From an uncultured Fibrobacteraceae bacterium (GTDB lineage: Bacteria; Krumholzibacteriota; Krumholzibacteriia; LZORAL124-64-63): a stretch of 64,000 nucleotides of DNA. This document shows positions 1 through 49,971 of the stretch, piece by piece. Under the pieces are notes generated by a model. The model was not told where the DNA came from and did no database searches. It was given only the letters and a program-made list of their open reading frames with translations. Location: NCBI GenBank assembly GCA_964524645.1, contig CAZGEC010000009.1, positions 7,403-71,402 on the forward strand, written 5' to 3'. Positions within the stretch are counted from its first letter, which is position 1. Every line of letters starts with the position of its first letter. The translations under genes and the position numbers were made by a program.

Positions 1-2731
1 CGGTGAACCCGAAGATCCGCAGGGCCTTGACCATGTTGGGGCTCATGGGCTCGACCAGGTGCTGCTCCAGCTGGCCGCGGGCGACCAGGTCCTCGTACTC
101 GCGGGGCCGGTCCTCCTTCAGCTCCGCCAGGGGAACGCGTCCCGTGAAGATCACCGGATCCATGGGGAACTTGTCCGGCCGGAAGTGCGTGTTGAAGAAG
201 TGCACCGTGAAGATGAAGCCGGTGGCCAGCAATGCCTCGTCGGAGTGGATGATGGTCGCCACGTTGATGAACCAGCCCGGAAAGATGTGCGTGAAGAATT
301 CCGGGAACCAGAGCATCAGGCCCGAGAAGCCGATCATGCCCACGCCCCAGAAAACCGCGAAGTAGTCGAACTTCTCCCAGTAGGTCCAGCGGCCGTAGCG
401 GGGGCGCGGCCCCATGCCGATGAACCACCGCAGCGTCTGTCCGAACTCCTGCAAGTCGCTCCTCTTCGGCAGCATGGTGTCGGGCCCGGCGAGGAACGCC
501 CGCCAGGACAGATCCGCCTTCCGCTTGCGGTAGAAGATATCGATGATGTGCCGGCCGAAGTAGAAGAAGGTGATCAGCGCGCAGATCCGGTGGATGATTC
601 CCGCGCTCTGGAAGCCGCCCATCACATGGGACAGCCACTGTGCCCAGGGCAGGTACGAGAACTTCAGGGTCATGCCGGTCAGCGCCAGACCCAGGAAGCT
701 GATGATGACGAGGACGTGCAGGTAGCGGGGGAGGCGACCGAAGCGCCGGTACTCGAGGCCGGTCGATTCGCGGCGCAGCTTGCGCACGTGCCGCAGGGCC
801 TGGAACGAGCGGGGCAGCCAGAGCAGCGTGTGGATGCCGAAAAAGGCGAAGGTGCCCACCAGCAGGCCCGTCATCAAGAGCCAGGTCCAGTAGATGAAGG
901 GGTACTTGCGCCGGTCGTGATGGGTGGCGTGGGTCAGGTAGCCCGCGAACTGCCGGTGAGAGCCGGTGTGGCACTGGGCGCAGGTGGCCACGATGTTCTC
1001 GCGGGAAAGGGTCGAGTGCGGATCGTCCGGGGGCAGGATGTTGTGCGATCCGTGGCAGTCCTGGCACTTCGCGGTCTCGGTGTAGCCCAGCTTGACGACC
1101 TTGCCGTGGAAGGTCTCGAAGTAGGAGTCGGTGACCTTGGGATGGCAGTGTCCGCAGGTGTTGACGATCTCGCGCATGAAGCCCGCGGCGTCGGTCCGCG
1201 TGATCTCGTGCGAGGTGTGGCAGTCGTTGCACATGGGCAGCTCCACACCGTCCTCGGCGTGGCCGGTGAAGTGGGTGCTGCCCTGGAAGGTCTCGTAGAT
1301 GCCGCTGTGGCACTTGGCGCAGGTGGTGGCGATGTTGGCCCGGTGGATGCTGGAGTTGCGGTCGCTCTGCGGCAGCTCCTGGTGCGAGGTGTGGCAATCG
1401 GTGCAGGTGGCCGATACGACGAGGCCGCTCTCGCTGAGGGCCTTCCCGTGCACGCTGTGGTTGTAGTTCTCCACGACCCGTTGGACCGGGCCCTTGTAGC
1501 GCAGGTCGGCGAGCCCCCCCTCGCCGTGACATTCGGCGCAGAGGCCGGGGATGTTGCTCTTGTAGGTCGGTGACGCGAGATCGGTCTTCTTCTTGATGGT
1601 GTGCGTGCCGTGACAACGCTCGCAGTCCGGTGCGTCCGGGTCACCACTGGCCTGGAGCTGGCCGTGCGTGCTCGTCTGGTAGGTGGCCACCACCCCGGCG
1701 TGGCAGATGGAGCAGTCGACCTTGGGCACCACCGTGGCGCAAGGTCTGGCGTGGGACGGGGTGGCGCCGGTATGGCACTGGACGCAGGCGACCTGGCGAT
1801 GGGCCGAGTCCTGCAACTCGCCGTCGTCGACGTACAGGCTGGTGGTGGTCCCGTCGTGCTCGACTTGCAGGCCCGGTTCGGCGTGGCAGGACAGGCATTC
1901 CTGGTTGCTCATCCCCTCGCCGTAGAACACCCGGCGGGCCTTGTGAGGCTCGTGGCACTCGACGCAGACGGGGACCTTGTTGGGTTCCTTCTCCCAGAGC
2001 TCACCGCGGATCACCTTCTGGTGCACCTGCTCGATGCGCCCGTGGCAGACCTGGCAGGTCTTGGGCACGTTGTCGCGATAGATGGTCGAGCGCGGATCCG
2101 TGTGCGGCAGCACGTTGTGAGCGGTGTGGCAGTCGGTGCAGACGGCCGAGATGGTCAGGCCGCGCTTGAAAAGCCCCTCGCCATGGATGCTGAAGGAGTA
2201 GTGCGTGAGGATGCTGTCCTGGGGTATGTCGTAGAGCCGGGAGACGGGCGTCCCCTCCTTGTGGCAGCGCCCGCACATGAAGGGGATGTTGAACTTGGTC
2301 ACGCGCGAGGCGTCGTTCGTGGGGGGAAGAATGTCGTGGGCGCCGTGGCAGTCCCAGCAGCGCGGGGCCAGTCTCTCGCCGCGGGCCGCGGCCTGTCCAT
2401 GAAGGCTCTGCCGGTAGACCTCGGCCACGTCGTCGTGGCAGAAGGCGCAGTCCACCGGCGCCAGGTCCTCGGCGTGGGGGAAATCGCTGCCCACCAGGTC
2501 CTGGTGGCAGTCGACGCAGGTCAGGCCCGCCTGGCCGTGGATCGAGCTCTCGTACTTCGGCAGGTCCACGAAGAGCGAGACGACGCGGCCGTCCCGGTTC
2601 GTGGTCAGCTCGGTGTCCTCGTGGCAGACGAGACAGTCCCCGGCCTCCTGGCCGAGGACCCGCGATGCGCCGGAGATCAGCAGCAGGACGACCAGGAGGG
2701 CCGGAAGCCGTGAGAGACGGGAGCGGTTCAT
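1..2731 (-). CDS. Multiheme c-type cytochrome fused to a C-terminal cytochrome b-like membrane domain (CbcL-like). Partial: the C-terminus runs past the window start.
   Basis: Hand translation of the minus strand from ATG 2729-2731: MNRSRLSRLPALLVVLLLISGASRVLGQEAGDCLVCHEDTELTTNRDGRV..., a signal peptide followed by many CxxCH motifs (CLVCH, CVDCH, CAFCH, CWDCH; DCSICH at 1700-1717 is in the same frame). The last residues before position 1 (..LEQHLVEPMSPNMVKALRIFGFT) are heme-free, so the gene continues past the edge. Absent from the ORF track because it is incomplete. Same architecture as 16011..17906. Confidence 0.75.
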   Translation of the reverse strand, partial: MNRSRLSRLPALLVVLLLISGASRVLGQEAGDCLVCHEDTELTTNRDGRVVSLFVDLPKYESSIHGQAGLTCVDCHQDLVGSDFPHAEDLAPVDCAFCHDDVAEVYRQSLHGQAAARGERLAPRCWDCHGAHDILPPTNDASRVTKFNIPFMCGRCHKEGTPVSRLYDIPQDSILTHYSFSIHGEGLFKRGLTISAVCTDCHTAHNVLPHTDPRSTIYRDNVPKTCQVCHGRIEQVHQKVIRGELWEKEPNKVPVCVECHEPHKARRVFYGEGMSNQECLSCHAEPGLQVEHDGTTTSLYVDDGELQDSAHRQVACVQCHTGATPSHARPCATVVPKVDCSICHAGVVATYQTSTHGQLQASGDPDAPDCERCHGTHTIKKKTDLASPTYKSNIPGLCAECHGEGGLADLRYKGPVQRVVENYNHSVHGKALSESGLVVSATCTDCHTSHQELPQSDRNSSIHRANIATTCAKCHSGIYETFQGSTHFTGHAEDGVELPMCNDCHTSHEITRTDAAGFMREIVNTCGHCHPKVTDSYFETFHGKVVKLGYTETAKCQDCHGSHNILPPDDPHSTLSRENIVATCAQCHTGSHRQFAGYLTHATHHDRRKYPFIYWTWLLMTGLLVGTFAFFGIHTLLWLPRSFQALRHVRKLRRESTGLEYRRFGRLPRYLHVLVIISFLGLALTGMTLKFSYLPWAQWLSHVMGGFQSAGIIHRICALITFFYFGRHIIDIFYRKRKADLSWRAFLAGPDTMLPKRSDLQEFGQTLRWFIGMGPRPRYGRWTYWEKFDYFAVFWGVGMIGFSGLMLWFPEFFTHIFPGWFINVATIIHSDEALLATGFIFTVHFFNTHFRPDKFPMDPVIFTGRVPLAELKEDRPREYEDLVARGQLEQHLVEPMSPNMVKALRIFGFT

Positions 2732-7747: not shown

Positions 7748-9247
7748 ATGAGTCTCTTCAGGCGCATTGATGGTGAGACCTGGGCGGAATACGGGCGGCG
7801 GCGCTTCACGATCCTGGCCCGGATCTTCTGGGCCAACGGGATGACCTCGGCTGGATCCATCATCATCGTGGTGACCCTGATCCTCCTGCTGGCGTTCATG
7901 TTCATCCACATCTACGACGTGGTGCTGAGGCGGCCGACTCATCCTTACGTCGGCCTGATCAGCTTCATGGTGCTGCCCGCCCTGATCGCCCTCGGGGCGG
8001 CGCTGGTCGGCGGCGGCCTGCTGCTCCGCCGGTGGCGGCGAAGGCGTGGCGTGCCGGAGCGCGAGCCGCTGCCCCTGGAAGGGGATCGGCTGCTGCGCCG
8101 CGGCGCGGTGATCGGCCTGCTGACGACCGTCTTCCTCGTTCTCTTCGGGACCTTCAGCTACGAGGCGTACCATTACACCGATTCCGTGGGCTTCTGCCTC
8201 AAGATCTGCCACCGGGTGATGCGCCCCGAGGGGGTGGCCTACTCGCGCTCGCCCCACGCCCACGTGGCCTGCGTCGACTGCCACATCGGTCCCGGTGCCT
8301 CCTGGTTCGTCCGCTCCAAGCTGTCGGGGCTGCGCCAGGTGTACGCCGTGCTCACCAACACCTACGATCGTCCCATCCCCGTACCGGTGCAGGACCTGCG
8401 ACCGGCCCGGGAAACCTGCGAGGTCTGTCACTGGCCCGCCAAGTTCCAGGGGGCCAGTCTCCGCATGACCCGGAACTACGAGAGCGACCGCGCGAACACG
8501 CCCACCGTCACGGCCCTGGTGCTGAAGGTCGGCGGCCTGCCGCGACCAGGAGCGCCGGCCACGGGCATCCACTGGCACGTGGACCCGCACAACGAGGTGA
8601 GGTACCTGGCCACCGATCGCGCGCGGCAGGACATCGTGGAGGTCATCCGTGACACTCCCGCCGGCGAGATCCGCTTCGTGCGCGAGGGGGCGGGGGCGGA
8701 CACGACCAAGGGGGAATGGCGCGTCATGGACTGCATCGACTGCCACAACCGCCCCACCCACATCTTCGACAGGCCCGGCGAGGCCGTGGACGCCGCGCTG
8801 GCCGACGGCCTGCTCGACCCGTCGCTGCCCTGGTTGCGCAAGGAAGGTGTGGCCGCTCTGCACGCCGTCACTCCCGGCGGCGCGACGGCTGACAGCGTGC
8901 TGGCCTGGCTCGTGTCCAGCTATCGCCAGGAGCACCCGGACGATCTTCCCGCCGTGCAGGATTCCCTGTCGAGAGCAGCCCAGGTGCTGGCCCGGATCCT
9001 CGAGGACAACGTCTTCCCGCACATGCGGATCACCTGGAACACCTACACCAGCAACATCTGGCACTTCGACGCCGACGGCGACCTGAGCAGCGGCGCCTGC
9101 TTCCGCTGCCACGACGAGGAGCACGTCAGCGCGCAGGGCGAGACCATCAGCCAGGACTGCGATCTCTGCCACACCCTGCTGGCCGATCACGAGGCGGACT
9201 GGACCGGGCTCAAGGGAATCCGGGAGGATTACCTGCGGCATCCCTAG
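7748..9247 (+). CDS. Membrane-anchored multiheme cytochrome c (NapC/NirT- or ImcH-like quinol dehydrogenase candidate)
   Basis: Two N-terminal TM helices (SIIIVVTLILLLAFMFIHIY; LISFMVLPALIALGAALVGGGLLL) followed by CVDCH, CEVCH, CIDCH, CFRCH, CDLCH plus one CxxxCH (CLKICH). AGGAGG RBS upstream. Confidence 0.75.
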   Translation: MSLFRRIDGETWAEYGRRRFTILARIFWANGMTSAGSIIIVVTLILLLAFMFIHIYDVVLRRPTHPYVGLISFMVLPALIALGAALVGGGLLLRRWRRRRGVPEREPLPLEGDRLLRRGAVIGLLTTVFLVLFGTFSYEAYHYTDSVGFCLKICHRVMRPEGVAYSRSPHAHVACVDCHIGPGASWFVRSKLSGLRQVYAVLTNTYDRPIPVPVQDLRPARETCEVCHWPAKFQGASLRMTRNYESDRANTPTVTALVLKVGGLPRPGAPATGIHWHVDPHNEVRYLATDRARQDIVEVIRDTPAGEIRFVREGAGADTTKGEWRVMDCIDCHNRPTHIFDRPGEAVDAALADGLLDPSLPWLRKEGVAALHAVTPGGATADSVLAWLVSSYRQEHPDDLPAVQDSLSRAAQVLARILEDNVFPHMRITWNTYTSNIWHFDADGDLSSGACFRCHDEEHVSAQGETISQDCDLCHTLLADHEADWTGLKGIREDYLRHP

Positions 9248-9294: not shown

Positions 9295-9319
9295 GGGGGA
9301 CGGTCCCGGACCGTCCCCC
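9295..9319. terminator. Bidirectional hairpin between convergent cytochrome genes
   Basis: Inverted repeat gggggacggtc-ccg-gaccgtccccc (11-bp stem) in the 100-nt gap between the 7748..9247 (+) and 9349..11253 (-) genes. Confidence 0.5.
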
Positions 9320-9348: not shown

Positions 9349-11253
9349 CTACTTGAGCAGCAGCGTGGCCCGGGCCAGCTGCTTCGGCGCCAGCGACAGC
9401 GTGCTCTGCTGCAGGAGCTGTATCGCGTAGAGCGCGTTGTGCACCCCGCGGCTCCCGTCGTACTCCACGAAGAAGTAGTTGTAAGCCGCCTTGCGCTGCG
9501 CGAGGGTCGAGATCGTGATGTCGCCAATCGCGGTCCCGAAGTTGGCCACCAGGGCCGCCCGGTGCGCGGGGCTGTCGCTGGCATCCAGGATGGCGTCATA
9601 CAGGATCGTCAGAAGCCCCTCGACCTCCAGCTGCACGCCCTGGATGACCCCGTTGCCGTCGTAGTCCTCGGTGGCGCCAACCTCCGAGAAGCTCGTCACG
9701 GGTCCGTGGCATTGCGTGCAGGCGTCGAGCCTCGGCTCGAAGCCGTGGCCGGTGTAGACCGGATCGTCCTCCTCGGCCTGCATGTGGCAGGTGACGCAGG
9801 CGTTCTCGATCGTGACGTGGCTGGTGGAGGCGAACGGGAAGCCGGGGGCGACGTCCTCGTAGGCTCCCGTCCCGACCAGCATGTCCGCCTGATCGGAGTG
9901 GTGCGGGCCGAAGTGCTCGTCACCTTCGGTCAGCTGATCCTGGATGTCGGCCGGGCCCCGGCGTCCGTTGTGGCAGGCCATACAGAGTCGGCCCTCCCCA
10001 CCCAGCGACACGACGGTCCCATCCGGCAGGTGCGCGTCCGTGGAGGCGGCGGCGCGCAGCTCGACGTGATTGTCGGTGCCGTGCATGTTGTGACAGATCG
10101 CGCAGGCGAGGGCCGTGACGGAGTCGACGCTGGCCGGGTTCGCGAAGGCAGTGGGATCATTCAGGTAATGGTAGGCGTAGGTGCCGTTGTGGCATTTCTG
10201 GCAGAACGTGAGCCCCAAGGGATCCGTCAGCTCCGTGGAATGGCCATGGGCCGACTCCTGCCACTCCGAGTAGGTCGGATGATGCGGCCCGTTGTGGCAG
10301 ATGCCGCAGAGGGAGGCGTCGATGGTGACCGGCAAGAACGGCATGCCGTTGGATGGGTGCTCGCTGCCGGGACCGTGGCAGTTCTCGCACTGAACACCCC
10401 AGAGAGCCATGATTGGGATGTCGTCGAAGCCGCCGTTGTTGAGGGCCGGGTTGGCGTCGAGACCCTCGCTGCCCACCGTGTGGCAGATCAGGCAGTCGTT
10501 GTTGTTGCCCTGGCCGATGGCCTGCAGGGTCTGCACGGCTTGAGCATGGCTCGTGTTTTCCCAGGTGTCGTAGATGTCCAGGTGGCAGCCGCTGCAGTAG
10601 GCGACTCCCTTGTAGGACGGCTCGTCGGTCGGCGTGTAGGGCAGCACCGTTATCCCGATGCTGGCGGACCGCGTGTCGCCCGCGGCGTTCACCACCACGA
10701 CCTGGACGGTCGCACCGCCGAAGGGCACCGTGTCCGGGGCCTTCCAGACCACCGTGTCGGGTGTCACCTGCGTGAGCGTGCCCGCCGAGGCGGTCCAAGA
10801 ATAGACCAGTCCGCTGCCCACGGAGACGGCCGCGATGGTGCTCTTGTGCGCGATCACCAGCGTGTCCGCGCTGGCCGTCAGCTGCAGGCCGATCTCGACG
10901 CCGATGGCGATGGAGGCCGAGGCCGTCAGGTTGCCGCTCCCGCGGACGGTCACCGTGAGGAGATACACGCCGGGCTGGTCCGGCGCCGTCCAGACGGTCG
11001 AGCTGGCGGAAGCATCCTGGAAGCTGCCAGCGTCGGCGGTCCAGAGATACACCAGGTTCTCGCCGGCGGCGTTCACCGAGATGTTGACCGTTCCGCCCTG
11101 GGCGACGATCTCCTGCGAGGCCGTGATCTCGGAGACGAGAGGCTGGGAGCCGCCCGGCCCGCTGACTTCGTCGTCGTCGTCGTCACATGCCGCGATGGGC
11201 AACACGAGAGCCAGCAGACCCAGCATCAGGAGAGCGAGTTTCCACCTGTGCAT
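9349..11253 (-). CDS. Multiheme (about 9 CxxCH) c-type cytochrome lipoprotein with N-terminal Ig-like/PKD-like repeats (outer-surface cytochrome candidate)
   Basis: Lipoprotein signal MHRWKLALLMLGLLALVLPIAAC followed by an acidic DDDDDE stretch. Two Ig-like repeats (VYLWTADAGSF.. and VYSWTASAGTL..). Motifs CSGCH, CLICH, CENCH, CGICH, CQKCH, CAICH, CMACH, CVTCH, CTQCH. Confidence 0.8.
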   Translation of the reverse strand: MHRWKLALLMLGLLALVLPIAACDDDDDEVSGPGGSQPLVSEITASQEIVAQGGTVNISVNAAGENLVYLWTADAGSFQDASASSTVWTAPDQPGVYLLTVTVRGSGNLTASASIAIGVEIGLQLTASADTLVIAHKSTIAAVSVGSGLVYSWTASAGTLTQVTPDTVVWKAPDTVPFGGATVQVVVVNAAGDTRSASIGITVLPYTPTDEPSYKGVAYCSGCHLDIYDTWENTSHAQAVQTLQAIGQGNNNDCLICHTVGSEGLDANPALNNGGFDDIPIMALWGVQCENCHGPGSEHPSNGMPFLPVTIDASLCGICHNGPHHPTYSEWQESAHGHSTELTDPLGLTFCQKCHNGTYAYHYLNDPTAFANPASVDSVTALACAICHNMHGTDNHVELRAAASTDAHLPDGTVVSLGGEGRLCMACHNGRRGPADIQDQLTEGDEHFGPHHSDQADMLVGTGAYEDVAPGFPFASTSHVTIENACVTCHMQAEEDDPVYTGHGFEPRLDACTQCHGPVTSFSEVGATEDYDGNGVIQGVQLEVEGLLTILYDAILDASDSPAHRAALVANFGTAIGDITISTLAQRKAAYNYFFVEYDGSRGVHNALYAIQLLQQSTLSLAPKQLARATLLLK

Positions 11254-11581
11254 GATACTACCTGCCTGTTCGAGGAAGGAGTCTGGCAGTCGACCCAGGA
11301 AGAGCCCGTTTTCAAATTACCAAGTGCAATACTATGATATTTAGGGGAGCCATGTTCAAGCGAAATCTGCACAGTTAAGAAAACCATAATCAATTGCAAT
11401 TTCTTGTTCTCCAACCAGTTCCCGCAACATTGCCTTGACGGTGGCTTGGAGACCTGCTGTAATTCCCACTAATTGAATATGATCTGTCCCCGCCCCTGAA
11501 ACGACTTTTTCAGACAGCGGTGACACGATAACCTGGATTTGTGCTAGTGTCCAGCGAGATCAGCTGGTTGCGCGGGATGGG
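11254..11581. promoter_or_regulatory. AT-rich divergent promoter region between two cytochrome genes
   Basis: A 328-bp intergenic stretch of markedly low GC in a ~70% GC genome (e.g. ttcaaattaccaagtgcaatactatgatatttagg and cactaattgaatatgatctg), flanked by divergent gene starts. Confidence 0.4.
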
Positions 11582-12766
11582 ATGGTGAGTCCGGGCCAGA
11601 GACCGGAAAGGATGGGTGTCATGATGCGGCTGTCGACCTTCGTGAAATACGGGGCCACTTGCCTGGTGGCAACCCTGCTGCTCGCTGGTTGCGAGAGCGA
11701 TCTCGAGCCCCTGAACCTGCCCAGCGAACTGACGGTGCAGGAGACCTTCGTGGGAGCCGCCAAGTGCAGCGCCTGCCACCCGGGGAAGTACGCCGAGTTC
11801 CTGGAGAGCGGCCACGCCCACATCCTCAACCGCGTCGTGGGCGGGCAGCTGCCCGCCTATCCCTTCCGCGACGAAGTGCCCTTCCCGCTCCTGGCGGCGC
11901 CCGGCGGCAGCTCCGACGATGTGCTCTACGTCGTCGGCGGCTTCGGCTGGAAGGCGAATTTCGTGGGAACGGACGGCTACCTGATCACGGGCGACGCGAC
12001 GCAGTGGGACCTGGAGACGGGGGAGTACGTGGCCTATCATCCCGGCGAGCAGCTGCCCTACGACTGCGGCGCCTGTCACACCACCGGATACTCGCCCACG
12101 GGCCACCAGCTCGGCCTGACGGGGCTGGTGGGGACCTGGACCGAGGACGGAGTCAACTGCGAGGCTTGCCATGGACCGGGCTCCCTGCACGTGCTCAGCC
12201 AGAGCGGGGAGGACATTAACCTGGATCGCAGCAACGCTCTCTGCGCCCGCTGCCACTCGCGGGGCGTGCCGAATCACATCGTCGCTTATCCACCGGACAG
12301 CGAGGGCGACCAGTTCCTCGCGAACTACGGGCAGTTCGACGAGCTGCAGGCCAGTCCGCATCGCAACCTGACCTGTGTGTCCTGCCATGATCCCCATCTT
12401 TCCGCGAAGTTCAGTCCGGAGCAGGCCATCGAGATCTCCTGCACGACCTGCCACGAGGAGATCGAGATCTTCAACACCGGCGGCGGGGCTCACACCTGCG
12501 TGAACTGTCACCTGCCCTTCGCCACCCTGTCGGCGGTGAAGCGTTCGCCGTACCAGGCCGACGTCCGGACCCACATCTTCCGCATCAATCCCTCCGCCGC
12601 TGCCGAGATGTTCTACCAGGAGAACGGAAACTGGTACTCCCATGATTTCCTGACCACCAACTTCACCTGCCTCCGCTGTCACGCTTCCCAGGACCGGCAG
12701 TGGGCGGAGGAACATGCGGACGAGATCCACTCGGGCGAGAAGCGACCGTTCCTCGCGGGGAGGTGA
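11582..12766 (+). CDS. Octaheme c-type cytochrome lipoprotein
   Basis: Lipobox LLLAGCESD. Motifs CSACH, CGACH, CEACH, CARCH, CVSCH, CTTCH, CVNCH, CLRCH. Start may be an internal Met (MMRLSTF..). Confidence 0.8.
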   Translation: MVSPGQRPERMGVMMRLSTFVKYGATCLVATLLLAGCESDLEPLNLPSELTVQETFVGAAKCSACHPGKYAEFLESGHAHILNRVVGGQLPAYPFRDEVPFPLLAAPGGSSDDVLYVVGGFGWKANFVGTDGYLITGDATQWDLETGEYVAYHPGEQLPYDCGACHTTGYSPTGHQLGLTGLVGTWTEDGVNCEACHGPGSLHVLSQSGEDINLDRSNALCARCHSRGVPNHIVAYPPDSEGDQFLANYGQFDELQASPHRNLTCVSCHDPHLSAKFSPEQAIEISCTTCHEEIEIFNTGGGAHTCVNCHLPFATLSAVKRSPYQADVRTHIFRINPSAAAEMFYQENGNWYSHDFLTTNFTCLRCHASQDRQWAEEHADEIHSGEKRPFLAGR

Positions 12767-12769
12767 GCC

Positions 12770-13699
12770 ATGCCCCGGGCTACCACTCCCCAGCGGACCG
12801 CCATGGTCCTCGGCCTGGGCTTGCTGATCGGGTCGGCGCTGAGCGTCTTGGCCGCAGGCTGGACGCCGTACACGTCTCGCCTGACCCCCCCGGCGGGCGC
12901 GAAGCCGGTGGGGACCGAGACGTGCGAGATGTGTCACGACGATGTGGCCGCCTTCTTCGCCGGCACCGCGCACGAGACGGCGATCGTTCCCGGCACCACG
13001 GTGGGGCTCTGCGAGGCCTGCCACGGTCCCGGCAGCCTGCACGTGGATGCCGAGGGTGACGGCCCCATCTTTGGTCCCTCGGTTCTGGGCCAGCTCGTCC
13101 CCGACGAGCGGGCGGCCATGTGCCTGCAGTGCCATCGCGCCCTGGAGGGAGCCTGGTACAACGGTCCTCACGCCGGCACGGATGCCGACTGCGCCGCCTG
13201 CCACACCGACCGTGCCCATTTCGCCCATGGCGCGCAGTCGCCGGGCGCCTTCCGCCGCGGGGCCGACTTCTGCCTGCAGTGCCATCCCGAGAACGCGGCG
13301 GATTTCCGCCTGCAGTACCGGCATCCCGTTCTCACCGGTCAGATGGAGTGCACGGACTGTCACTCTCCCCACGGCACTTCCGATGACCGGGCGGCGTTTG
13401 CCGAAGATGGTCTCGTCTGCCTGCGCTGCCACGCGGAGATGGCGGGTCCGTTCGTCTTCGAGCACGAGCCCACGGCGGACGGGTCCTGCACTGCCTGTCA
13501 CCGGCCCCATGGGTCCCCCAACGACCGGCTGCTCACCCAGGACAGCAACAGTCTCTGCCTGAACTGCCACTACGAGCCGGCCTTTCCCGTGCTTGGAGGC
13601 GTGGATCACGCGGACTTCCTGGCCCAGCGGGCCCGCTGCTACGACTGCCACGCCGAGATCCACGGATCCAACCTGGACCCGAACCTACTCAAGCCCTAG
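12770..13699 (+). CDS. Periplasmic decaheme c-type cytochrome (MtrA/PioA-like)
   Basis: Signal peptide, then 10 CxxCH in 309 aa (CEMCH, CEACH, CLQCH, CAACH, CLQCH, CTDCH, CLRCH, CTACH, CLNCH, CYDCH). RBS gggaggtg upstream. Starts 4 nt after the preceding stop. Confidence 0.8.
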   Translation: MPRATTPQRTAMVLGLGLLIGSALSVLAAGWTPYTSRLTPPAGAKPVGTETCEMCHDDVAAFFAGTAHETAIVPGTTVGLCEACHGPGSLHVDAEGDGPIFGPSVLGQLVPDERAAMCLQCHRALEGAWYNGPHAGTDADCAACHTDRAHFAHGAQSPGAFRRGADFCLQCHPENAADFRLQYRHPVLTGQMECTDCHSPHGTSDDRAAFAEDGLVCLRCHAEMAGPFVFEHEPTADGSCTACHRPHGSPNDRLLTQDSNSLCLNCHYEPAFPVLGGVDHADFLAQRARCYDCHAEIHGSNLDPNLLKP

Positions 13700-13708
13700 G
13701 AGGTCGGC

Positions 13709-15724
13709 ATGGGCAGCTGCAAGGGGATGGGCAAGATGCTGGCAGCGAGGGTCCTCGTGGTCGCGGTGATCCTGCCCGTTGCGGGCGGCGCGCTCGCTGC
13801 CGAGTCGTCCTCCGGTGAGCTTGTTTACGGCACGCCCATCTACCCGTTCTGGTCGGCGCCCGGGGACAGCGTCGGCGTGGCGTCACGCTTGACCTGCGGG
13901 GCCGGACTGCTGGACGACCACGGCCGGGTGGATCGGCTGGCCGAGGACGAGGGGCTGGTGGACAAGGCCTGGGGCCGCCTGCTCTGGGACCGCCGCAACC
14001 TCGTCGGAAAGACCGATCACCTGGTCACCCACGGACAGTTCCGCAGCGACGACGAGATGTCCGGATGGGCCGACGTCCGCTTCAGCCGGACGGGGAAGGC
14101 CGAGTATCGCCTGCGCTACACCCGCCTGCTGGAATACGACGATCGCACCGCCGAGGATCCCTTCCTGCCGGCGGGTGTGGTCGGGGTGATACCGGGCCAC
14201 CCGCTCTTGCGCTGGGATCGCGTGGACTTCGCCTACCGGCGCGAGCTTCGCCCCGGCTGGAATCTGGAGGCCGGCTACGGCTACCTGGCCAAGGACGGCC
14301 GGCGGGCCGGGCTCTCCCGAGGCATTGTGGGGGCCGACCTGCTCTTCGGCCTGCCGGACGCCCTTGAGCGCGCCACCTGGACGCAGCGCGCCTACCTGGC
14401 CGGCGACGTCCTGTCGGGAGGGCTGACCGTGGACTGGCGCCTGAATCTCCAGGCGGACGGCGGCCGCCAGGTCCGGCACAGCACGTCGGCCCTGCCGGCC
14501 ACGCCGGAAGTGATCAGCGAGAGCCGGCGCGCCGCGGAGAACCGGACCTGGAGCCTCAACCTCGGTTCCACCTACACGGCCGGTCCGCGCTGGCTGCTCT
14601 TCGGGAGCTACGATTACCGGCAGCATCGCGCCGAACCGGAGGAGAGCCGCGGTCTGGCCGGCGGCCCGCAGCCGGGCAGCCGCCTCGTGGCGAACGACCT
14701 GGAGGCGGACGCGCGCATCCACACCGGCCTGTTCGGCGTCCTGTATCATCCGCGGCCCTGGTTGCGCGTGCGGCTGGCGGCGCGGCTGCAGAATCTGGAT
14801 CAGGTGAGCCTCGCGACCGCCGGCCGCCTCGACGAGCTGCTGGCCCGCGAGCACGGCAGCCTGGACCGCGAGCGCTTCCGCCAGGCTTACAGCCTGGATC
14901 TGAGCCACAGCGGTTTCCGGAACTCCCGTTACGGGCTGAACTACCGCTACGAGCGGAGCGACGAGCAGACCCACCTGCTGGAACTGGACGAGTACCTGGG
15001 CGGAAACGTCATCCTGCGCGCGCAGCAGAGCGACCGGGATCAGACGGTGCACGATCTGAAGCTCACGGGTCGCCGCCGGCTAGCGCGCGGGTTGTCCCTT
15101 CTGGCGAACCTGGGCTACCGGGCGGAGGACATCGATCAATCCAACGAGATCCGCGGCGGGCTCTACGCCCAGGGGAACCGGAGCTGGGGACGGTGGCGGG
15201 GCGAGATCAAGCTGCGCACGCGTCCGGTGCCGGAGTTCCACTGCGACGCGGGCTACCTCCTGCTGCGCGAGACCTTCGAGCGGGACGATCTGGAGGGCGC
15301 GCGGACGAGCTGGGACGCCGATCGCCTGTTCGCCACGGCGGCCTTCCTGCCCGATCCACGCCTCGCTCTCTACCTGAGCTTCAGCATCGGCTGGGAGGAC
15401 TACGACATCGAGGGAACGCTGCCGGCCGCGGCGAACGATCCGCTCGTCTACAACCCGGTGGAGTACGGGACACGCACCTACCGGCTGGCGCCGGCGGCCG
15501 TGCTGCAGCTGACCAGGAGCCTGTCGCTCGAGGGCGGGTACGAGCGCGTGCGCAACCGGGACTCCGTGGCCAATGATGGGGATCGCTGGCACGCCCGGCT
15601 GAATCAGCGGCTGGCCGAGAGCTGGACGTTGAGCGCCGGCTACCGCCGCTACGACTTCAGCAACCCTTACCGCGACGACTACGCGGCCGATCTGTACACG
15701 CTCTCCGTGACCACGGCGCCCTGA
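13709..15724 (+). CDS. Putative outer-membrane beta-barrel protein (MtrB/PioB-like porin candidate of a porin-cytochrome complex)
   Basis: Signal peptide MGKMLAARVLVVAVILPVAGGALAAE. 671 aa, heme-free, Cys-poor, with alternating hydrophobic/polar strand-like segments rich in Y/R/D/G. Sits immediately downstream of the decaheme gene with an AGGAGG RBS. Lacks the canonical C-terminal aromatic residue, so the assignment is tentative. Confidence 0.45.
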   Translation: MGSCKGMGKMLAARVLVVAVILPVAGGALAAESSSGELVYGTPIYPFWSAPGDSVGVASRLTCGAGLLDDHGRVDRLAEDEGLVDKAWGRLLWDRRNLVGKTDHLVTHGQFRSDDEMSGWADVRFSRTGKAEYRLRYTRLLEYDDRTAEDPFLPAGVVGVIPGHPLLRWDRVDFAYRRELRPGWNLEAGYGYLAKDGRRAGLSRGIVGADLLFGLPDALERATWTQRAYLAGDVLSGGLTVDWRLNLQADGGRQVRHSTSALPATPEVISESRRAAENRTWSLNLGSTYTAGPRWLLFGSYDYRQHRAEPEESRGLAGGPQPGSRLVANDLEADARIHTGLFGVLYHPRPWLRVRLAARLQNLDQVSLATAGRLDELLAREHGSLDRERFRQAYSLDLSHSGFRNSRYGLNYRYERSDEQTHLLELDEYLGGNVILRAQQSDRDQTVHDLKLTGRRRLARGLSLLANLGYRAEDIDQSNEIRGGLYAQGNRSWGRWRGEIKLRTRPVPEFHCDAGYLLLRETFERDDLEGARTSWDADRLFATAAFLPDPRLALYLSFSIGWEDYDIEGTLPAAANDPLVYNPVEYGTRTYRLAPAAVLQLTRSLSLEGGYERVRNRDSVANDGDRWHARLNQRLAESWTLSAGYRRYDFSNPYRDDYAADLYTLSVTTAP

Positions 15725-16010: not shown

Positions 16011-17906
16011 ATGCACCTCTGCTGGCGGATCCTGCTCTGCATGCTGCTGCTGGGACTCGGGGCCGAACAGGCCGCCGGGGAGAGCTTCACCGGCGAGGAC
16101 TGTGCCGCTTGCCATACGGGCTCCGGCGGTGACCCGCCGGAGGTGACGGCGGCCGACCTGGCGGGCGGTGTGCACGAGGGGCTGGACTGCACCGATTGCC
16201 ACGCCGGGATCGAGGAACTGCCGCACGCGGAGGCGCTGCCCGCCGCCGACTGCGGATCCTGCCATGCGGAGGTGGAGGAGACCTACCGGCAGCACGGGCG
16301 CGGCAAGGTGGGCGTTTCCCCCTTCGTGCCGGGCTGCGCCGATTGCCATGGCACCCACCGGATCCTGGCCATCCTGGACCGGGATTCCCCGGTGCATCCT
16401 CTCAACCTGCCGGGGACCTGCGGCCGCTGCCACGAGGACCAGACGTTCACCGAGCAGCTGAGCATCAAGTTCAAGCACCCCATCCGCGTCTACGAGCAGA
16501 GCGTGCACGGCCGCGCCACGGCCGGCGGCATCCACACGGCGGCTACCTGCAACGACTGCCACTCCACCGGCGGCTCGGCCCACATGATCCTGCCGCCCGG
16601 CGACTCCCGCTCCACCATCAACCACTTCAACATCCCCTACACCTGCGGCCAGTGCCACAACGGCATCGAACAGGACTACTGGGAAGGGATCCATGGCGAG
16701 CTGACTGCGCGCGGCGAGGTGGACTCGCCCACCTGCACGCACTGCCACGGGGAGCACGGCATCCTGCCCACGGCGGATCCACGCTCCCCGGTCAGTCCCT
16801 ACCGCCTGGCCGAAGCGACCTGCGCACCCTGTCACGAATCGGCGGCCCTCAACGAGAAGTACGACCTGCCCACCGGCCGGCTGCAGTCCTTCGTGGATTC
16901 CTACCACGGGCTGAAGAGCAAGGCCGGGGACAAGACCGTGGCCAACTGCGCTTCCTGCCATGGCGCCCACCGCATCCTGCCGGCGGCGGACCCGACCTCG
17001 TCCATCAATCCGCGGAACCTCCCGATCACCTGCGGCGCCTGCCATCCCGGCATCTCGCCCGACATCGCGCGGACGCCCATCCACGCTACCGCCACCGGCC
17101 TGCGCACGGGCTGGCCGCACTTCTTCCGGCTGCTCTACATCTGCCTGATCGTGGTGGTCATCGGCGGCATGGTGCTGCACTGGCTCATCGATCTCTTCCG
17201 GCAGATCCGCAACGTCCTGCAGGAGCGGCCCCAGGTACGTCGCATGGAGGCGGACGAGGTGATCCAGCACACGCTGCTGGCGGTCGCCTTCACGGTTCTG
17301 GTGATCACCGGCTTCTCGCTGCGTTTCCACGACGCCTGGTGGACCAACCTGCTCTTCGGCCGGGAGGGCGGCTACGCGGTCCGCGGCATCATCCACCGGG
17401 TCGCGGGGGTCCTGCTGCTCCTGGGAGGGCTATGGCACCTGCTGTTCCTTTTCACCGAGCGCGGGCGCGGCTTCGTGCGCGACATGCGGCCGCAGGCGGG
17501 GGACGTGCGACAGTTCTTCCAGATGATCCGCTACAACCTGGGGCGCACCGACGAGCAGCCGCAGATGGGCCGCTTCTCCTACGTGGAGAAGGCGGAGTAC
17601 TGGGCCCTGGTCTGGGGCACCGTGGTCATGGGGATCACCGGTCTCTTCCTGTGGTTCGAGAACCTCGCGGTCCGTCTCTTTCCCAAGGGTCTGCTGGACG
17701 TCTTCCTGGTCATCCACTACTACGAGGCCTGGCTCGCCTTCCTGGCGATTCTCATCTGGCACATGTACGCCACGGTCTTCAGCCCGCGCGTCTACCCCAT
17801 GAACCCCTCCTGGCTGACCGGCCGGATGCCGCGCCGCATGTACGAGGAGGAGCATCCGGGAGCCCTGCCGGAAGCGGCGCCGAGCAGGGAGCCGGACCCC
17901 GAATAG
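16011..17906 (+). CDS. CbcL-like protein: N-terminal multiheme (about 11 CxxCH) cytochrome c fused to a C-terminal diheme cytochrome b-like (HydC/FdnI-like) membrane domain
   Basis: Signal peptide MHLCWRILLCMLLLGLGAEQAAG. Motifs CAACH, CTDCH, CGSCH, CADCH, CGRCH, CNDCH, CGQCH, CTHCH, CAPCH, CASCH, CGACH. Then 4-5 TM helices with conserved His (HWLIDLF.., HTLLAVAF.., HRVAGVLLLLGGLWH.., VIHYYEAW..). ATG 16011 is in frame with track ORF 15930..17906. Confidence 0.8.
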   Translation: MHLCWRILLCMLLLGLGAEQAAGESFTGEDCAACHTGSGGDPPEVTAADLAGGVHEGLDCTDCHAGIEELPHAEALPAADCGSCHAEVEETYRQHGRGKVGVSPFVPGCADCHGTHRILAILDRDSPVHPLNLPGTCGRCHEDQTFTEQLSIKFKHPIRVYEQSVHGRATAGGIHTAATCNDCHSTGGSAHMILPPGDSRSTINHFNIPYTCGQCHNGIEQDYWEGIHGELTARGEVDSPTCTHCHGEHGILPTADPRSPVSPYRLAEATCAPCHESAALNEKYDLPTGRLQSFVDSYHGLKSKAGDKTVANCASCHGAHRILPAADPTSSINPRNLPITCGACHPGISPDIARTPIHATATGLRTGWPHFFRLLYICLIVVVIGGMVLHWLIDLFRQIRNVLQERPQVRRMEADEVIQHTLLAVAFTVLVITGFSLRFHDAWWTNLLFGREGGYAVRGIIHRVAGVLLLLGGLWHLLFLFTERGRGFVRDMRPQAGDVRQFFQMIRYNLGRTDEQPQMGRFSYVEKAEYWALVWGTVVMGITGLFLWFENLAVRLFPKGLLDVFLVIHYYEAWLAFLAILIWHMYATVFSPRVYPMNPSWLTGRMPRRMYEEEHPGALPEAAPSREPDPE

Positions 17907-21000: not shown

Positions 21001-21152
21001 AAGCGGCCGTGCCCGGCGCCCTGACCCGCCCCTGCTGCGGCTCCGCCTCCGAGCCCGGCACGGATCCGGCGGAGGTCCCGGGCAGCGTCGCCTTCCGGCT
21101 GGACGAGGCGACCTGGCGCCAGCTGCAGATCCCGCTGCCCATCACCGAGTGA
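18075..21152 (+). CDS. Large hypothetical bitopic membrane protein (1025 aa)
   Basis: About 330-aa N-terminal globular region (MDVMAVIEQLLYGYHAESGQPGRTLLARSPGVSQE..), then a Pro/Ala/Arg-rich low-complexity linker, a single TM helix FAFLIAMVLVLLLAGAAYLLG, and a ~640-aa mostly helical C-terminal region. No recognisable catalytic motif. Confidence 0.55.
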   Translation: MDVMAVIEQLLYGYHAESGQPGRTLLARSPGVSQECAAEIIRYCEAWGGIPVGHSFRPALLSFPLQGGIPSLPGRLFAVIRIAAASEDGRGAEKLSVGQLLELESAGVPSDDSPVVAPIPLFHAVVLSESDFAAFGENPYALALENIFLDRWAPGLILDRREVHPASLAPLVSPLPTESDVDLIGEALRQYFAKGKLILPLTASDEQSDRFLALLVAALPLRLKRGLRFASFAVSDANSYTLAAIYREGQSFRGWQRLLMAHLPGTMNQEAERYLAAVKQTLARSDLLGLEKLSRQNLGEIRLQAEKPAASSPGVLAATITSRAAPAPAPTPWAAATSVARTPNVGRGRPGSKPAARTGSHRRPARRRPARLPAGRRPSFAFLIAMVLVLLLAGAAYLLGTHGGKWFAARPAEEEETAGASLLGVIDVGALYEAELNGFLDAQLGQGGKASSKGAAKALSALRIGAAEDLGQQARLFVDLAHEGIQLPARPEREKERLQALAQRGAVIEHEMQRLLLAYYAFDSGILWRDLGDLEERRLQARYDSLARRQGEALARISQEMALTDVMPALHAASMEATGMSQLVTQFSRKERDRSWVETTEKAAQSLSGHRLAPGTAAYRTSAFLMIRLKRAEDSAGFGRLAFARDYEQQIWLPATVREILPAMRSHAARFGKEGVPPLFTATVAFYDDLERVPQVLAAGSSAEMYGLIRKLADSRALAFDPATYQDHVDRLRTAAVAVLHGRGTNPHDLPSNLFPAGDRETTLAFLQLCRSGAAAEEWGEVANLTSVPFFARWAAAEAQAARQARVRLQGNFDEVYRDLGRAASSLAGLAAAGQDWTGSYLSLRKDVIRALATYRTQLAGDSGRSAQLARLEALAARLDSPLPLVLKAVTVRLGAGALTEPTQVILELLAEDGRSLLRTPAFAVGPSAPAGTGWVGTQDLDLQIQVRAGERLRAVLQRADDQSALLVTTYEAEGEAAVPGALTRPCCGSASEPGTDPAEVPGSVAFRLDEATWRQLQIPLPITE

Positions 21153-49814: not shown

Positions 49815-49971
49815 GGGAGCCTCCTTCGACGGACGAGCATCGGGATCCTCGCACTAGATGGCTGCCGGGGCGGGAATTCGCAAGATGGTAGTATAGCCCA
49901 CGGGAGCGGCTTGCACCAGCCGCGGATTGTCCTTCCCGCCGGCCGGCGGCCGGTGCTACCTTGCAGGCAGC

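What the first reader, a model, noticed from the sequence alone, without database searches (positions are those of the whole stretch)
1..2731. Two CbcL-like cytochrome c/b fusion genes bracket the cluster; one is truncated by the window edge
The fusion of a roughly 10-20-heme c domain to a HydC/FdnI-type diheme b domain is rare. It is the hallmark of the Geobacter low-potential quinol oxidase CbcL. Two copies (<1..2731 minus strand, and 16011..17906) suggest redox-potential-specialised paralogs.
Basis: partly seen in the sequence, partly recalled or inferred. Interest (0 to 1): 0.55.

Follow-up and report, generated by a model that had tools for sequence, protein, structure and literature searches.

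The report
Two CbcL-like membrane cytochrome genes
The window really carries two genes that fuse a many-heme periplasmic cytochrome c to a membrane cytochrome b, but this design is common in uncultured bacteria, and the two genes are old, distinct family members that sit with an ImcH-like cytochrome and an outer-membrane conduit as a likely route for exporting respiratory electrons.

Summary
Both genes are real and intact. p1 (window 2-2731, minus strand) has 19 CXXCH motifs, a linker helix and an FdnI-like b domain. Only 21 codons are lost at the window edge; a near-identical metagenome contig gives the full 931 aa. p2 (16011-17906) has 11 CXXCH motifs and the same type of b domain. All four FdnI heme-b histidines are present in both and invariant in 120/120 homologues of each.

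The fusion is not rare: it was already surveyed in 15 phyla, with 3-23 hemes. Here I found 2,390 cluster representatives and at least 502 species genomes with the p1-type (CbcL-type) b domain.

p1 is a genuine CbcL-type protein. Its b domain is 45% identical to a Desulfuromonas CbcL orthologue, it has six TM helices, and it carries 10 extra N-terminal hemes. p2 belongs to a separate clade (24% identity, five TM helices). They are ancient paralogues, not a local duplication.

"Bracketing" is loose: three unrelated genes separate p1 from the cytochromes. An ImcH-like gene, an MtrA-family decaheme and a putative porin lie between p1 and p2.

p1-type, p2-type and ImcH-like genes recur together across at least six major lineages, which makes a multi-branch quinol-oxidase gateway plausible. 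Specialisation by redox potential remains untested.

Verdict: new members of a known kind.

The parts
2..2731 (-). p1: 19-heme cytochrome c fused to a CbcL-type diheme cytochrome b. 910 of its 931 codons lie in the window.
   Evidence: The full length was recovered from L001/P0121.
968..2650 (-). p1 periplasmic c domain (aa 28-588) with 19 CXXCH motifs. It contains an internal tandem repeat of a roughly 7-heme unit.
   Evidence: One search gives the motif positions. One search shows residues 55-268 versus 301-513 are 38% identical (E 3e-46), and the motif spacing 23/24-30-28-45-28-30 occurs twice.
2..898 (-). p1 membrane part (aa 612-910): linker helix TM0, then FdnI-like TM1-TM4. The sixth helix is mostly cut off by the window edge. 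The heme-b His codons are H672 (716-718), H714 (590-592), H829 (245-247) and H844 (200-202).
   Evidence: each His invariant in 120/120 homologues; helices; FdnI is the top fold match.
16011..17906 (+). p2: 11-heme cytochrome c fused to an FdnI-type diheme cytochrome b. It is 631 aa, complete, and has five TM helices.
17106..17855 (+). p2 membrane part: TM0 (aa 366-399) plus the PF01292 domain. The heme-b His codons are H420 (17268-17270), H462 (17394-17396), H569 (17715-17717) and H584 (17760-17762).
   Evidence: One search gives the residue-by-residue alignment to FdnI H18/H57/H155/H169. One search shows each His is invariant in 120/120 homologues.
7748..9247 (+). ImcH-like inner-membrane cytochrome. 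It has three N-terminal TM helices, one CX3CH motif and five CXXCH motifs, and an NrfH/NapC-like segment.
   Evidence: Motif spacing 25-49-105-122-20 matches the ImcH table in PMC6295460. It is conserved next to the p2 orthologue in L003.
9349..11253 (-). Predicted lipoprotein with a PKD domain and 9 CXXCH motifs; a candidate surface cytochrome.
11582..12766 (+). Predicted lipoprotein with 8 CXXCH motifs.
12770..13699 (+). DmsE/MtrA-family periplasmic decaheme cytochrome.
   Evidence: TIGR03508 scores 196.3 bits against a cut-off of 192.2. One search shows 10 CXXCH motifs.
13709..15724 (+). 671-aa secreted protein with no haem motifs and no family match. It is a putative outer-membrane porin partner of the decaheme cytochrome (inferred from position only).
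   Evidence: Searches gave no hits. It sits directly after the MtrA-like gene.
18075..21152 (+). 1025-aa protein with a single TM helix and no known family. It is conserved directly downstream of the p2 orthologue in a relative.
   Evidence: 41% identity over 99% of its length in L003.

Best explanation
p1 and p2 are two anciently diverged members of the CbcL/MtrH/MtoC kind of inner-membrane bc-cytochrome. The host is a Krumholzibacteriia-like bacterium.

Each protein has a signal peptide that exports a bis-His multiheme c domain to the periplasm. A linker helix (TM0) then returns the chain to the cytoplasm, and a four-helix FdnI-type bundle binds two b hemes stacked across the membrane. These points are shown by sequence and fold.

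The mechanism is inferred by homology with FdnI and from the Geobacter literature. Menaquinol is oxidised at a site near the cytoplasmic-side heme b, and its protons are released to the cytoplasm. Electrons cross the membrane through the two b hemes into the 19-heme (p1) or 11-heme (p2) wire. They then pass to periplasmic and outer-membrane cytochromes.

In this window those downstream partners would be the MtrA-family decaheme, a putative porin and two lipoprotein cytochromes. Together with the ImcH-like NapC/NirT-type cytochrome, p1 and p2 would form alternative exits from the quinone pool for extracellular electron transfer. The most likely direction is outward, to Fe(III)/Mn(IV) minerals, humics or partner cells.
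For: Architecture and haem ligands:
- Searches give the domain layout and align p2 H420/H462/H569/H584 with FdnI H18/H57/H155/H169.
- One search shows all four His are invariant in 120/120 homologues of each family.
- Searches show FdnI (1KQF_C) is the top solved fold for both models.

CbcL relationship:
- One search compares p1 residues 316-929 with a Desulfuromonas thiophila CbcL orthologue. They are collinear and 35% identical (E 4e-123), and the b domains are 44.6% identical.
- That orthologue's nine heme motifs match the published G. sulfurreducens CbcL positions.
- p1 has six TM helices and a TM0 His, as described for CbcL.
- p2 forms a separate clade.

Selection:
- Heme counts are conserved: 110/120 p1 homologues have 19 motifs, and 119/120 p2 homologues have 11.

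Context:
- An ImcH-like gene, an MtrA-family decaheme, a putative porin and lipoprotein cytochromes lie between the two genes.
- A relative keeps the order p1 | DUF4015 | imcH-like | p2 | 1020-aa gene.
- In 28 of 81 genome loci from several phyla, p1-type, p2-type and ImcH-like genes lie within 10 kb of each other.

Literature on mechanism: PMC6295460, and the preprints 10.1101/2022.08.31.506072 and 10.1101/2023.05.03.539133.
Against: - No experiment exists for these proteins or for any close relative.
- The quinone site, the direction of electron flow and the physiological acceptor are all inferred.
- The c domains are modelled poorly (pLDDT 36-68), so heme-wire geometry is unknown.
- The 671-aa 'porin' has no detectable homology to MtrB or any solved protein.
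- p1 is monocistronic, 5 kb from the other cytochrome genes, and separated from them by polysaccharide-related genes. Its functional link to the cluster therefore rests on synteny in other genomes.
- The MtrA/porin module is absent from the closest relative examined (L003), so it is not an obligatory partner.
- CbcL-family members also occur in Fe(II) oxidisers (MtoC), so outward flow is not proven.
Confidence: 0.72

Rival explanations
1. p1, p2 and the ImcH-like protein are quinol oxidases tuned to different acceptor redox potentials, like ImcH (> -0.1 V), CbcL (to about -0.2 V) and CbcBA (below -0.21 V) in Geobacter sulfurreducens. This refines the best explanation rather than excluding it.
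For: - Three different inner-membrane cytochromes that resemble quinol oxidases are encoded within 18 kb.
- The same three types are co-located in 28 of 81 loci from several phyla. This argues for non-redundant roles.
- p1 keeps the TM0 His that Joshi et al. (10.1101/2021.04.15.440034) proposed might underlie potential gating of CbcL. In p2 that position is His or Tyr.
Against: - Nothing in the sequence gives a midpoint potential.
- Co-location would equally fit different partners, different quinones, opposite directions or a single complex.
- In Geobacter the three genes are not clustered. CbcBA, the third Geobacter oxidase, is stated to share no sequence homology with CbcL and was not compared with p2 here.
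Confidence: 0.3
2. The proteins run in reverse. They would be quinone reductases that take electrons from outside the cell (Fe(II), cathodes, partner cells), as proposed for MtoC in Gallionella and Dechloromonas.
For: - CbcL/MtrH/MtoC homologues occur in both Fe(III) reducers and Fe(II) oxidisers, with no distinguishing sequence feature (PMC6295460).
- p2 sits directly after an MtrA-like decaheme and a putative porin, the position MtoC/MtrH holds in mtoAB/mtrAB clusters.
Against: - An ImcH-like gene is part of the conserved core. ImcH homologues had been found only in Fe(III) reducers, with none in metal oxidisers.
- The rest of the window looks like a protein-degrading heterotroph: secreted M1, S8 and S9 peptidases, and PEPCK.
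- No carbon-fixation or Cyc2-type genes were seen in the window.
Confidence: 0.12
3. p1-type, p2-type and ImcH-like proteins are subunits of one membrane supercomplex, or act in series, rather than being parallel alternatives.
For: - In many genomes the three genes abut and run in the same direction, with overlapping stop and start codons. This is typical of complexes.
- The p1-type protein is naturally split into c and b subunits in about 25 loci, which shows the parts can assemble in trans.
Against: - In this window and in L003 the three genes are in separate transcription units. p1 is divergent and distant, and a strong hairpin follows the imcH-like gene.
- 32 of 81 loci have the p1-type gene alone within 10 kb.
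- Each protein already contains a complete path from quinone site to heme wire.
Confidence: 0.1
4. They are what the automatic annotations call them: gamma (cytochrome b) subunits that anchor a formate dehydrogenase, hydrogenase or thiosulfate reductase.
For: JGI names for the homologues include 'formate dehydrogenase gamma subunit', 'cytochrome b subunit of formate dehydrogenase' and 'thiosulfate reductase cytochrome b subunit'. The best solved homologue is FdnI.
Against: - No molybdopterin, FeS or NiFe subunit gene lies next to either gene here or in L003.
- Scores are far below the equivalog cut-offs (65.5 against 115.85 bits for p2, and 25.7 for p1).
- The fused multiheme domain occupies the periplasmic face, where FdnH/FdnG would dock.
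Confidence: 0.03

Closest known systems
Geobacter sulfurreducens CbcL (GSU0274) and its Desulfuromonadales orthologues
   Same: Same domain order: signal peptide, bis-His multiheme c domain, linker TM, then an FdnI/HydC-type diheme b domain.

p1 also shares the six TM helices and the five TM histidines (TM0, TM1, TM2 and two in TM4). Its b domain is 44.6% identical to the D. thiophila orthologue, and its last nine hemes plus the b domain are collinear with the whole of CbcL.
   Different: p1 has 19 hemes rather than 9. The 10 extra N-terminal hemes arose by tandem duplication of a roughly 7-heme unit. p1 lies in a 19-heme subclade found mainly in FCB-group phyla, Acidobacteriota and Planctomycetota.

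p2 has 11 hemes, five TM helices and only 24% b-domain identity. It falls outside the CbcL-type clade.

Neither protein has any functional data.
MtoC / MtrH (Gallionella, Dechloromonas, Rhodoferax)
   Same: Same fused c/b architecture. The genes lie beside mtoAB/mtrAB-type decaheme-plus-porin genes, as p2 lies directly after an MtrA-family decaheme and a putative porin (PMC6295460).
   Different: In the closest relative (L003) p2 has no MtrA/porin neighbours, so the adjacency here is a local insertion.
E. coli formate dehydrogenase-N gamma subunit FdnI (PDB 1KQF chain C)
   Same: Four-helix diheme bundle with all four His ligands aligned. It is the top fold match for both models.
   Different: - Sequence identity is only about 20%.
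- There is one extra residue between the two TM4 histidines (15 versus 14).
- There is an extra N-terminal TM helix, and in p1 a C-terminal one.
- The periplasmic partner is a covalently fused multiheme cytochrome rather than FdnGH.
- The presumed direction is quinol oxidation rather than quinone reduction.
Geobacter CbcBA (separate b subunit plus a c subunit with a C-terminal TM anchor)
   Same: In about 25 genomes the p1-type protein is split in the same style. A 19-heme c subunit keeps a C-terminal TM helix containing a conserved His, and a separate b subunit follows. It is also presumed to be a quinol oxidase for extracellular electron transfer.
   Different: CbcB is reported to share no sequence homology with CbcL and to have four TM helices with three His. 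In the window, p1 and p2 are fused proteins.

Membership tests
CbcL/MtrH/MtoC bc-cytochromes (architecture-defined superfamily, Zhong & Shi 2018) | N-terminal periplasmic domain with multiple CXXCH motifs (3-23 reported), preceded by a signal peptide | tested here: met
   p1 has 19 motifs and p2 has 11. Both have hydrophobic N-terminal signal sequences.
CbcL/MtrH/MtoC bc-cytochromes (architecture-defined superfamily, Zhong & Shi 2018) | C-terminal multi-TM domain homologous to HydC/FdnI diheme cytochrome b | tested here: met
   p2 hits PF01292 (E 5e-16), TIGR01583 (E 6e-18) and 1KQF_C (E 6e-7). For p1 the link is weak by single sequence (TIGR01583 E 1e-5). It is supported by hhalign to the p2 family (probability 100%) and by a Foldseek top hit to 1KQF_C with TM-score 0.74.
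CbcL/MtrH/MtoC bc-cytochromes (architecture-defined superfamily, Zhong & Shi 2018) | Conserved TM histidines able to ligate two b hemes | tested here: met
   p2 H420/H462/H569/H584 align with FdnI H18/H57/H155/H169. The p1 equivalents are H672/H714/H829/H844. All are invariant in 120/120 homologues.
CbcL sensu stricto (Geobacter GSU0274 orthologue group) | b domain groups with Desulfuromonadales CbcL to the exclusion of other FdnI-like domains | tested here: inconclusive
   p1 lies inside the broad CbcL-type clade (44.6% identity; clade support 131/200), but in its own 19-heme subclade (200/200). p2 lies outside that clade; the p2 clade has 197/200 support. These are NJ trees only. G. sulfurreducens itself is represented by a D. 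thiophila orthologue that was reconstructed across a frameshift.
CbcL sensu stricto (Geobacter GSU0274 orthologue group) | Nine-heme c domain; six TM helices; five candidate heme-ligand His (one each in TM 1-3, two in TM 5) | tested here: not met
   p1 has six TM helices and the five His (H634, H672, H714, H829, H844), but 19 hemes. p2 has 11 hemes and five TM helices, and its first-helix His is only 83/120 conserved, with Tyr in the rest.
CbcL sensu stricto (Geobacter GSU0274 orthologue group) | Required for extracellular electron transfer at or below about -0.1 V; potential-gated | not testable with these tools
   This needs genetics and electrochemistry.
Formate dehydrogenase gamma subunit (FdnI/FdoI equivalogs) | Score above the NCBIfam equivalog cut-off, with adjacent fdnGH-type catalytic genes | tested here: not met
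   TIGR01583 scores 65.5 bits (p2) and 25.7 bits (p1) against a cut-off of 115.85. No catalytic subunit genes lie nearby.
ImcH family (neighbour gene 7748-9247) | [quoted passage not shown] | tested here: met
   Three TM helices; CX3CH plus five CXXCH motifs with ImcH-like spacing; NrfH model E 6.5e-14 over residues 126-229. No direct alignment to Geobacter ImcH was made.

The most novel reading that the evidence does not exclude
The window is a loosened copy of a conserved, multi-phylum inner-membrane 'gateway'. Its three components are an 11/13-heme p2-type bc-cytochrome, a 19-heme CbcL-type bc-cytochrome (fused or split into c and b subunits) and an ImcH-like cytochrome.

The three genes are often co-directional and abutting, which looks like an operon. 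I saw this in Zixibacteria, Acidobacteriota, Bacteroidota, Ignavibacteria, KSB1 and Woeseiaceae, and more loosely in a Krumholzibacteriia relative.

If the module is a functional unit, it gives cells three graded or differently partnered exits from the quinone pool. That would make the Geobacter 'redox-potential gearbox' an ancient, widespread design. [quoted passage not shown] I found no paper in the searchable library that describes this triad.
Probability: 0.3. Interest if true: 0.6.

Novelty: new member of a known kind. Interest (0 to 1): 0.35.

Why it matters
These genes are the likely entry point of a complete electron-export chain in a Krumholzibacteriia-like bacterium, a group with no cultured metal reducers. 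The chain runs from quinol oxidases through a periplasmic decaheme and a putative porin to surface cytochromes.

The genes themselves are ordinary members of a known family, so they do not change the picture of how such proteins work. What is useful is the context.

- The 19-heme CbcL-type gene, the 11/13-heme p2-type gene and an ImcH-like gene travel together across many phyla.
- The 19-heme protein exists in both fused and split forms.

Both observations give concrete, testable handles on two questions. One is why electroactive bacteria keep several inner-membrane quinol oxidases. The other is what the first transmembrane helix and its conserved histidine do. The results also show that the database names ('formate dehydrogenase gamma subunit') are misleading for thousands of proteins.

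Tried and rejected
- **Exact-sequence look-ups failed.** I looked up the DUF4015 protein (guessed start) and P0001 to extend the contig. Neither was on record. The look-up of P0121 succeeded instead.
- **No full Geobacter CbcL sequence.** The alignment in the supplement of PMC9129911 is machine-read and garbled. Using its fragments as bait returned only six short Desulfuromonadales b-domain fragments. I therefore rebuilt a D. thiophila CbcL orthologue from L002 across a frameshift and used that as the reference.
- **The genome-contig scan did not reach Geobacter or MtoC/MtrH.** The best 80 loci were all closer relatives of p1, so p2 versus MtoC/MtrH stays untested.
- **p1 does not reach FdnI by sequence against the PDB.** Neither the single sequence nor the 42-sequence profile hit it. 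The link needed profile-profile and fold comparison.
- **Two gene and bootstrap errors were corrected.** My first GC3-based gene call put a spurious minus-strand ORF at 7057-7686; the real gene is a plus-strand GT4 glycosyltransferase at 6521-7690. A first bootstrap run with Kimura distances gave NaN values and was discarded and redone.
- **Other dead ends.** The listing of cluster members gave no organism names. The putative porin has no Pfam, NCBIfam or PDB sequence match. Literature searches for the triad or for '19-heme' proteins found nothing specific.
- **Readings rejected.** A recent local duplication is ruled out by 30% b-domain identity and separate clades. An anchor for formate dehydrogenase or hydrogenase is ruled out by the absence of catalytic genes. 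A frameshifted or pseudogene fusion is ruled out by two assemblies and by conserved orthologues of the same length (110/120 for p1 and 119/120 for p2 also keep the same heme count).
Full report
**Observation**

The window is 68% G+C.

On the minus strand an ORF starts at ATG 2731 and runs without a stop to base 2, giving 910 codons. It has a hydrophobic signal sequence and 19 CXXCH motifs between residues 33 and 588. Several hydrophobic helices follow after residue 612.

On the plus strand, 16011-17906 encodes a complete 631-aa protein. It has a signal sequence, 11 CXXCH motifs (residues 31-345) and five hydrophobic helices. I call these proteins p1 and p2.

p2 is identical to database protein P0001. 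p1 is 100% identical over all 910 residues to P0121, which is 931 aa. P0121 is encoded on a 6.7-kb JGI metagenome contig (L001) that differs from the window at 3 of 3,156 overlapping bases.

So only 21 codons are lost at the window edge, and they form most of a sixth transmembrane helix. An independent assembly shows the same uninterrupted c-b fusion.

**The b domains**

p2 matches Pfam PF01292 (E 5e-16) and formate dehydrogenase gamma TIGR01583 (E 6e-18, far below the equivalog cut-off). It also matches E. coli FdnI, PDB 1KQF chain C (E 6e-7).

In the printed alignment, p2 H420, H462, H569 and H584 fall on FdnI H18, H57, H155 and H169. From my own knowledge of the Jormakka et al. 2002 structure, these are the ligands of the cytoplasmic-side and periplasmic-side b hemes. 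There is one extra residue between the last two, so the spacing is 15 instead of 14.

p1 alone reaches FdnI-type models only weakly (TIGR01583 E 1e-5). Its profile does not find FdnI in the PDB by sequence. Three other results make the link:
- p1 aligns with p2 through the whole membrane part (BLASTP E 2e-89).
- The two family profiles match with probability 100% and E 1.7e-96.
- The AlphaFold models of both proteins have confident b domains and poorly modelled c domains. Both give FdnI as the top solved fold, with TM-scores of 0.75 and 0.74 normalised to FdnI.

The p1 equivalents of the four histidines are H672, H714, H829 and H844. In alignments of 120 homologues per family, all four are invariant in both families.

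**How rare is the fusion?**

It is not rare. Zhong & Shi 2018 (PMC6295460) had already catalogued 138 CbcL/MtrH/MtoC homologues. They came from 15 phyla, with 3-23 CXXCH motifs, lengths of 416-1034 aa and mostly six TM helices.

My searches point the same way:
- Each protein has at least 120 cluster representatives at 58% identity or better, with the same length.
- 119 of 120 p2 homologues have 11 motifs, and 110 of 120 p1 homologues have 19.
- An exhaustive HMMER search with the p1 b domain found 2,390 50%-identity representatives at E <= 1e-3, of which 384 were at E <= 1e-30. In most full-length hits the b domain sits at the C-terminus of a 400-1126-aa protein carrying up to 22 heme motifs.
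The best 80 were in Krumholzibacteriia, Zixibacteria, Eisenbacteria, Acidobacteriota, Bacteroidota, Ignavibacteria, Planctomycetota, Gemmatimonadota, Omnitrophota, KSB1 and Woeseiaceae.

The closest named relatives of both proteins are Candidatus Krumholzibacteriia MAGs.

**Relationship to CbcL**

I could not obtain the G. sulfurreducens sequence directly. OCR fragments of it, taken from a paper supplement, led to Desulfuromonadales b-domain fragments. Those led in turn to the Desulfuromonas thiophila locus L002, where cbcL is split by a frameshift in the assembly.

The rejoined 614-aa protein has nine CXXCH motifs at 32, 57, 81, 104, 128, 156, 184, 227 and 255. The published G. sulfurreducens CbcL positions are 34, 57, 82, 105, 129, 158, 186, 229 and 257. 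It is therefore a valid CbcL orthologue.

p1 residues 316-929 align collinearly with the whole of that protein (35% identity, E 4e-123). The b domains are 44.6% identical (E 8e-95). For p2 the figures are 25% overall and 24% for the b domain (E 4e-23). p1 and p2 b domains are 30% identical to each other.

In neighbour-joining trees rooted on FdnI, the p2 family and the p2-type neighbours from other genomes form their own clade (197/200 bootstraps). p1 falls inside the large clade that also holds the Desulfuromonas CbcL. That clade has 131/200 support, and the 19-heme subclade has 200/200.

p1 also shares CbcL's six TM helices and its five candidate ligand histidines, including one in the first helix (H634, invariant). 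Joshi et al. discuss this His as a possible basis for potential gating. p2 has five helices, and its first-helix position is His in 83 and Tyr in 37 of 120 homologues.

The c domain of p1 is an internal duplication. Residues 55-268 and 301-513 are 38% identical (E 3e-46), and the motif spacing 23/24-30-28-45-28-30 occurs twice. p1 is thus best described as a CbcL-type protein with about ten extra N-terminal hemes. p2 is a member of a distinct, older sister family.

**Context**

All six multiheme genes of the window lie within the first 18 kb. Downstream of p1 (on L001) are unrelated genes on the other strand or without cytochrome features, so p1 is effectively monocistronic.

Between p1 and p2 the genes are:
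- a DUF4015/LysM protein, an ABC exporter and a GT4 glycosyltransferase;
- an ImcH-like cytochrome (7748-9247), with three TM helices, a CX3CH motif plus five CXXCH motifs in ImcH spacing, and an NrfH-like segment at E 6.5e-14;
- a convergent lipoprotein with a PKD domain and 9 hemes;
- a lipoprotein with 8 hemes;
- a DmsE/MtrA-family decaheme that scores above the TIGR03508 cut-off;
- a 671-aa secreted protein with no family, which I take from its position to be the porin.

p2 follows the putative porin. After p2 comes a 1025-aa single-TM protein with no family.

In a relative (GCA_976551315.1, 74-77% identical proteins) the order is p1 | DUF4015 | imcH-like | p2 | 1020-aa protein. The conserved core is therefore imcH-like, p2 and the unknown protein, with p1 divergent nearby. 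The MtrA/porin/lipoprotein module (and the ABC exporter and GT4 genes) are insertions specific to this genome. 'Two copies bracket the cluster' is therefore only loosely true.

**A wider pattern**

I examined 81 loci centred on a p1-type b domain. Of these:
- 28 also carry a separate p2-type gene (11 or 13 hemes, 35-76% identical b domain) and an ImcH-like gene within 10 kb;
- 12 have only the p2-type gene;
- 9 have only the ImcH-like gene.

In Bacteroidota, Ignavibacteria, Zixibacteria, Acidobacteriota, KSB1 and Woeseiaceae the genes are often co-directional and abutting, most often in the order p2-type, p1-type, imcH-like.

In about 25 loci the p1-type protein is naturally split just after the first TM helix. 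One gene encodes a 19-heme c subunit that keeps that helix and its His. A separate gene encodes a 281-344-aa b subunit. The fusion itself is therefore a variable trait.

In Zixibacteria RBG-1, the ImcH homologue listed by Zhong & Shi (G0778) lies next to the p1 orthologue (G0777 = P0223). No Zixibacteria entry appears in their CbcL/MtrH/MtoC table. I found no paper in the searchable library that describes this triad.

**Mechanism**

The following points are shown: export signal, heme-binding motifs, membrane topology consistent with FdnI, the four b-heme ligands, and homology to CbcL.

The following points are inferred from FdnI and from the Geobacter literature. Menaquinol is oxidised near the cytoplasmic-side heme b. 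Protons are released to the cytoplasm, and electrons cross the membrane through the two b hemes into the fused heme wire. From there they pass to periplasmic and outer-membrane cytochromes. Such a step does not add to the proton-motive force, but it allows reduction of low-potential acceptors.

Outward electron flow is favoured for two reasons. The ImcH-like partner belongs to a family whose homologues had been found only in Fe(III)-reducing bacteria. The rest of the window also looks heterotrophic. Inward flow, as proposed for MtoC, is not excluded.

Whether p1, p2 and the ImcH-like protein divide the work by redox potential, as ImcH, CbcL and CbcBA do in Geobacter, cannot be decided from sequence.

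**Verdict**

These are new members of a known kind. The modest added value is the conserved three-gene neighbourhood and the fused/split polymorphism.

Noticed in passing
window 7748-9247 (+): An ImcH-like inner-membrane cytochrome: three TM helices, one CX3CH plus five CXXCH motifs, and an NrfH-like segment. It sits between the two CbcL-like genes and is conserved next to the p2 orthologue in a relative. An MtrA-family decaheme gene lies about 3.5 kb downstream (12770), with two lipoprotein cytochrome genes in between. Zhong & Shi 2018 reported that no mtrAB/mtoAB genes are adjacent to imcH.
   Followed up: partly
L012, L014, L025, L026, L029, L032, L036, L043, L055, L062, L064, L079, L080 and others (81 loci in all): p2-type (11/13-heme), p1-type (19-heme) and ImcH-like genes recur together within 10 kb in 28 of 81 loci from several phyla. 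They are often abutting and co-directional. I found no description of this triad in the searchable literature.
   Followed up: partly
L025 7882-10825; L026 7004-9885; L029 7891-10819; L036 7849-10819; L043 7938-10819; L062 7939-10810; L080 4739-7652: In Bacteroidota, Ignavibacteria and Acidobacteriota the 19-heme CbcL-type protein is split into two overlapping genes just after the first TM helix. One encodes a c subunit with a C-terminal TM anchor that keeps the conserved His (HTLLWLPR). The other encodes a separate 281-344-aa b subunit. This resembles the CbcA/CbcB arrangement.
   Followed up: partly
window 9349-15724: A four-gene Mtr/Pcc-like module: two lipoprotein multiheme cytochromes, an MtrA-family decaheme and a 671-aa putative porin with no detectable homologues in Pfam, NCBIfam or the PDB. 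It is present here but absent at the same place in relative L003, so it looks like an insertion.
   Followed up: partly
window 18075-21152 (+): A 1025-aa protein with a single TM helix (about aa 374-404 of the protein, counted from the ATG at 18075) and no Pfam or NCBIfam match. It is conserved directly downstream of the p2 orthologue in L003 (41% identity over 99% of its length). Its function is unknown.
   Followed up: no
p1 H634, H728, H849 (window 830-832, 548-550, 185-187, minus strand); p2 H476 (17436-17438), H358, H615: Further invariant histidines lie near the cytoplasmic side of the membrane domain, in addition to the four FdnI-type ligands. Both families also have 15 rather than 14 residues between the two TM4 ligands. 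They could belong to the quinone or proton site, or to an alternative heme ligation as speculated for CbcL.
   Followed up: no
window 9295-9319: A strong 11-bp G+C-rich hairpin followed by a T-rich tail. It lies between the convergent imcH-like gene and the lipoprotein cytochrome gene, and is probably a bidirectional terminator.
   Followed up: no
L002 about 3960-4040 (Desulfuromonas thiophila genome): The cbcL orthologue is called as two genes (434 + 179 aa) because of a frameshift near codon 425. This is either an assembly error or a pseudogene.
   Followed up: no
window 39126-45039: Secreted M1 and S8 peptidases with C-terminal FlgD_ig-like domains, plus an S9 prolyl oligopeptidase at 47673-49853. 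These fit a protein-degrading heterotroph of the FCB group.
   Followed up: no
window 6521-7690 (+): A GT4 glycosyltransferase gene that overlaps the end of the ABC exporter gene. A minus-strand ORF at 7057-7686 with high GC3 is spurious.
   Followed up: yes
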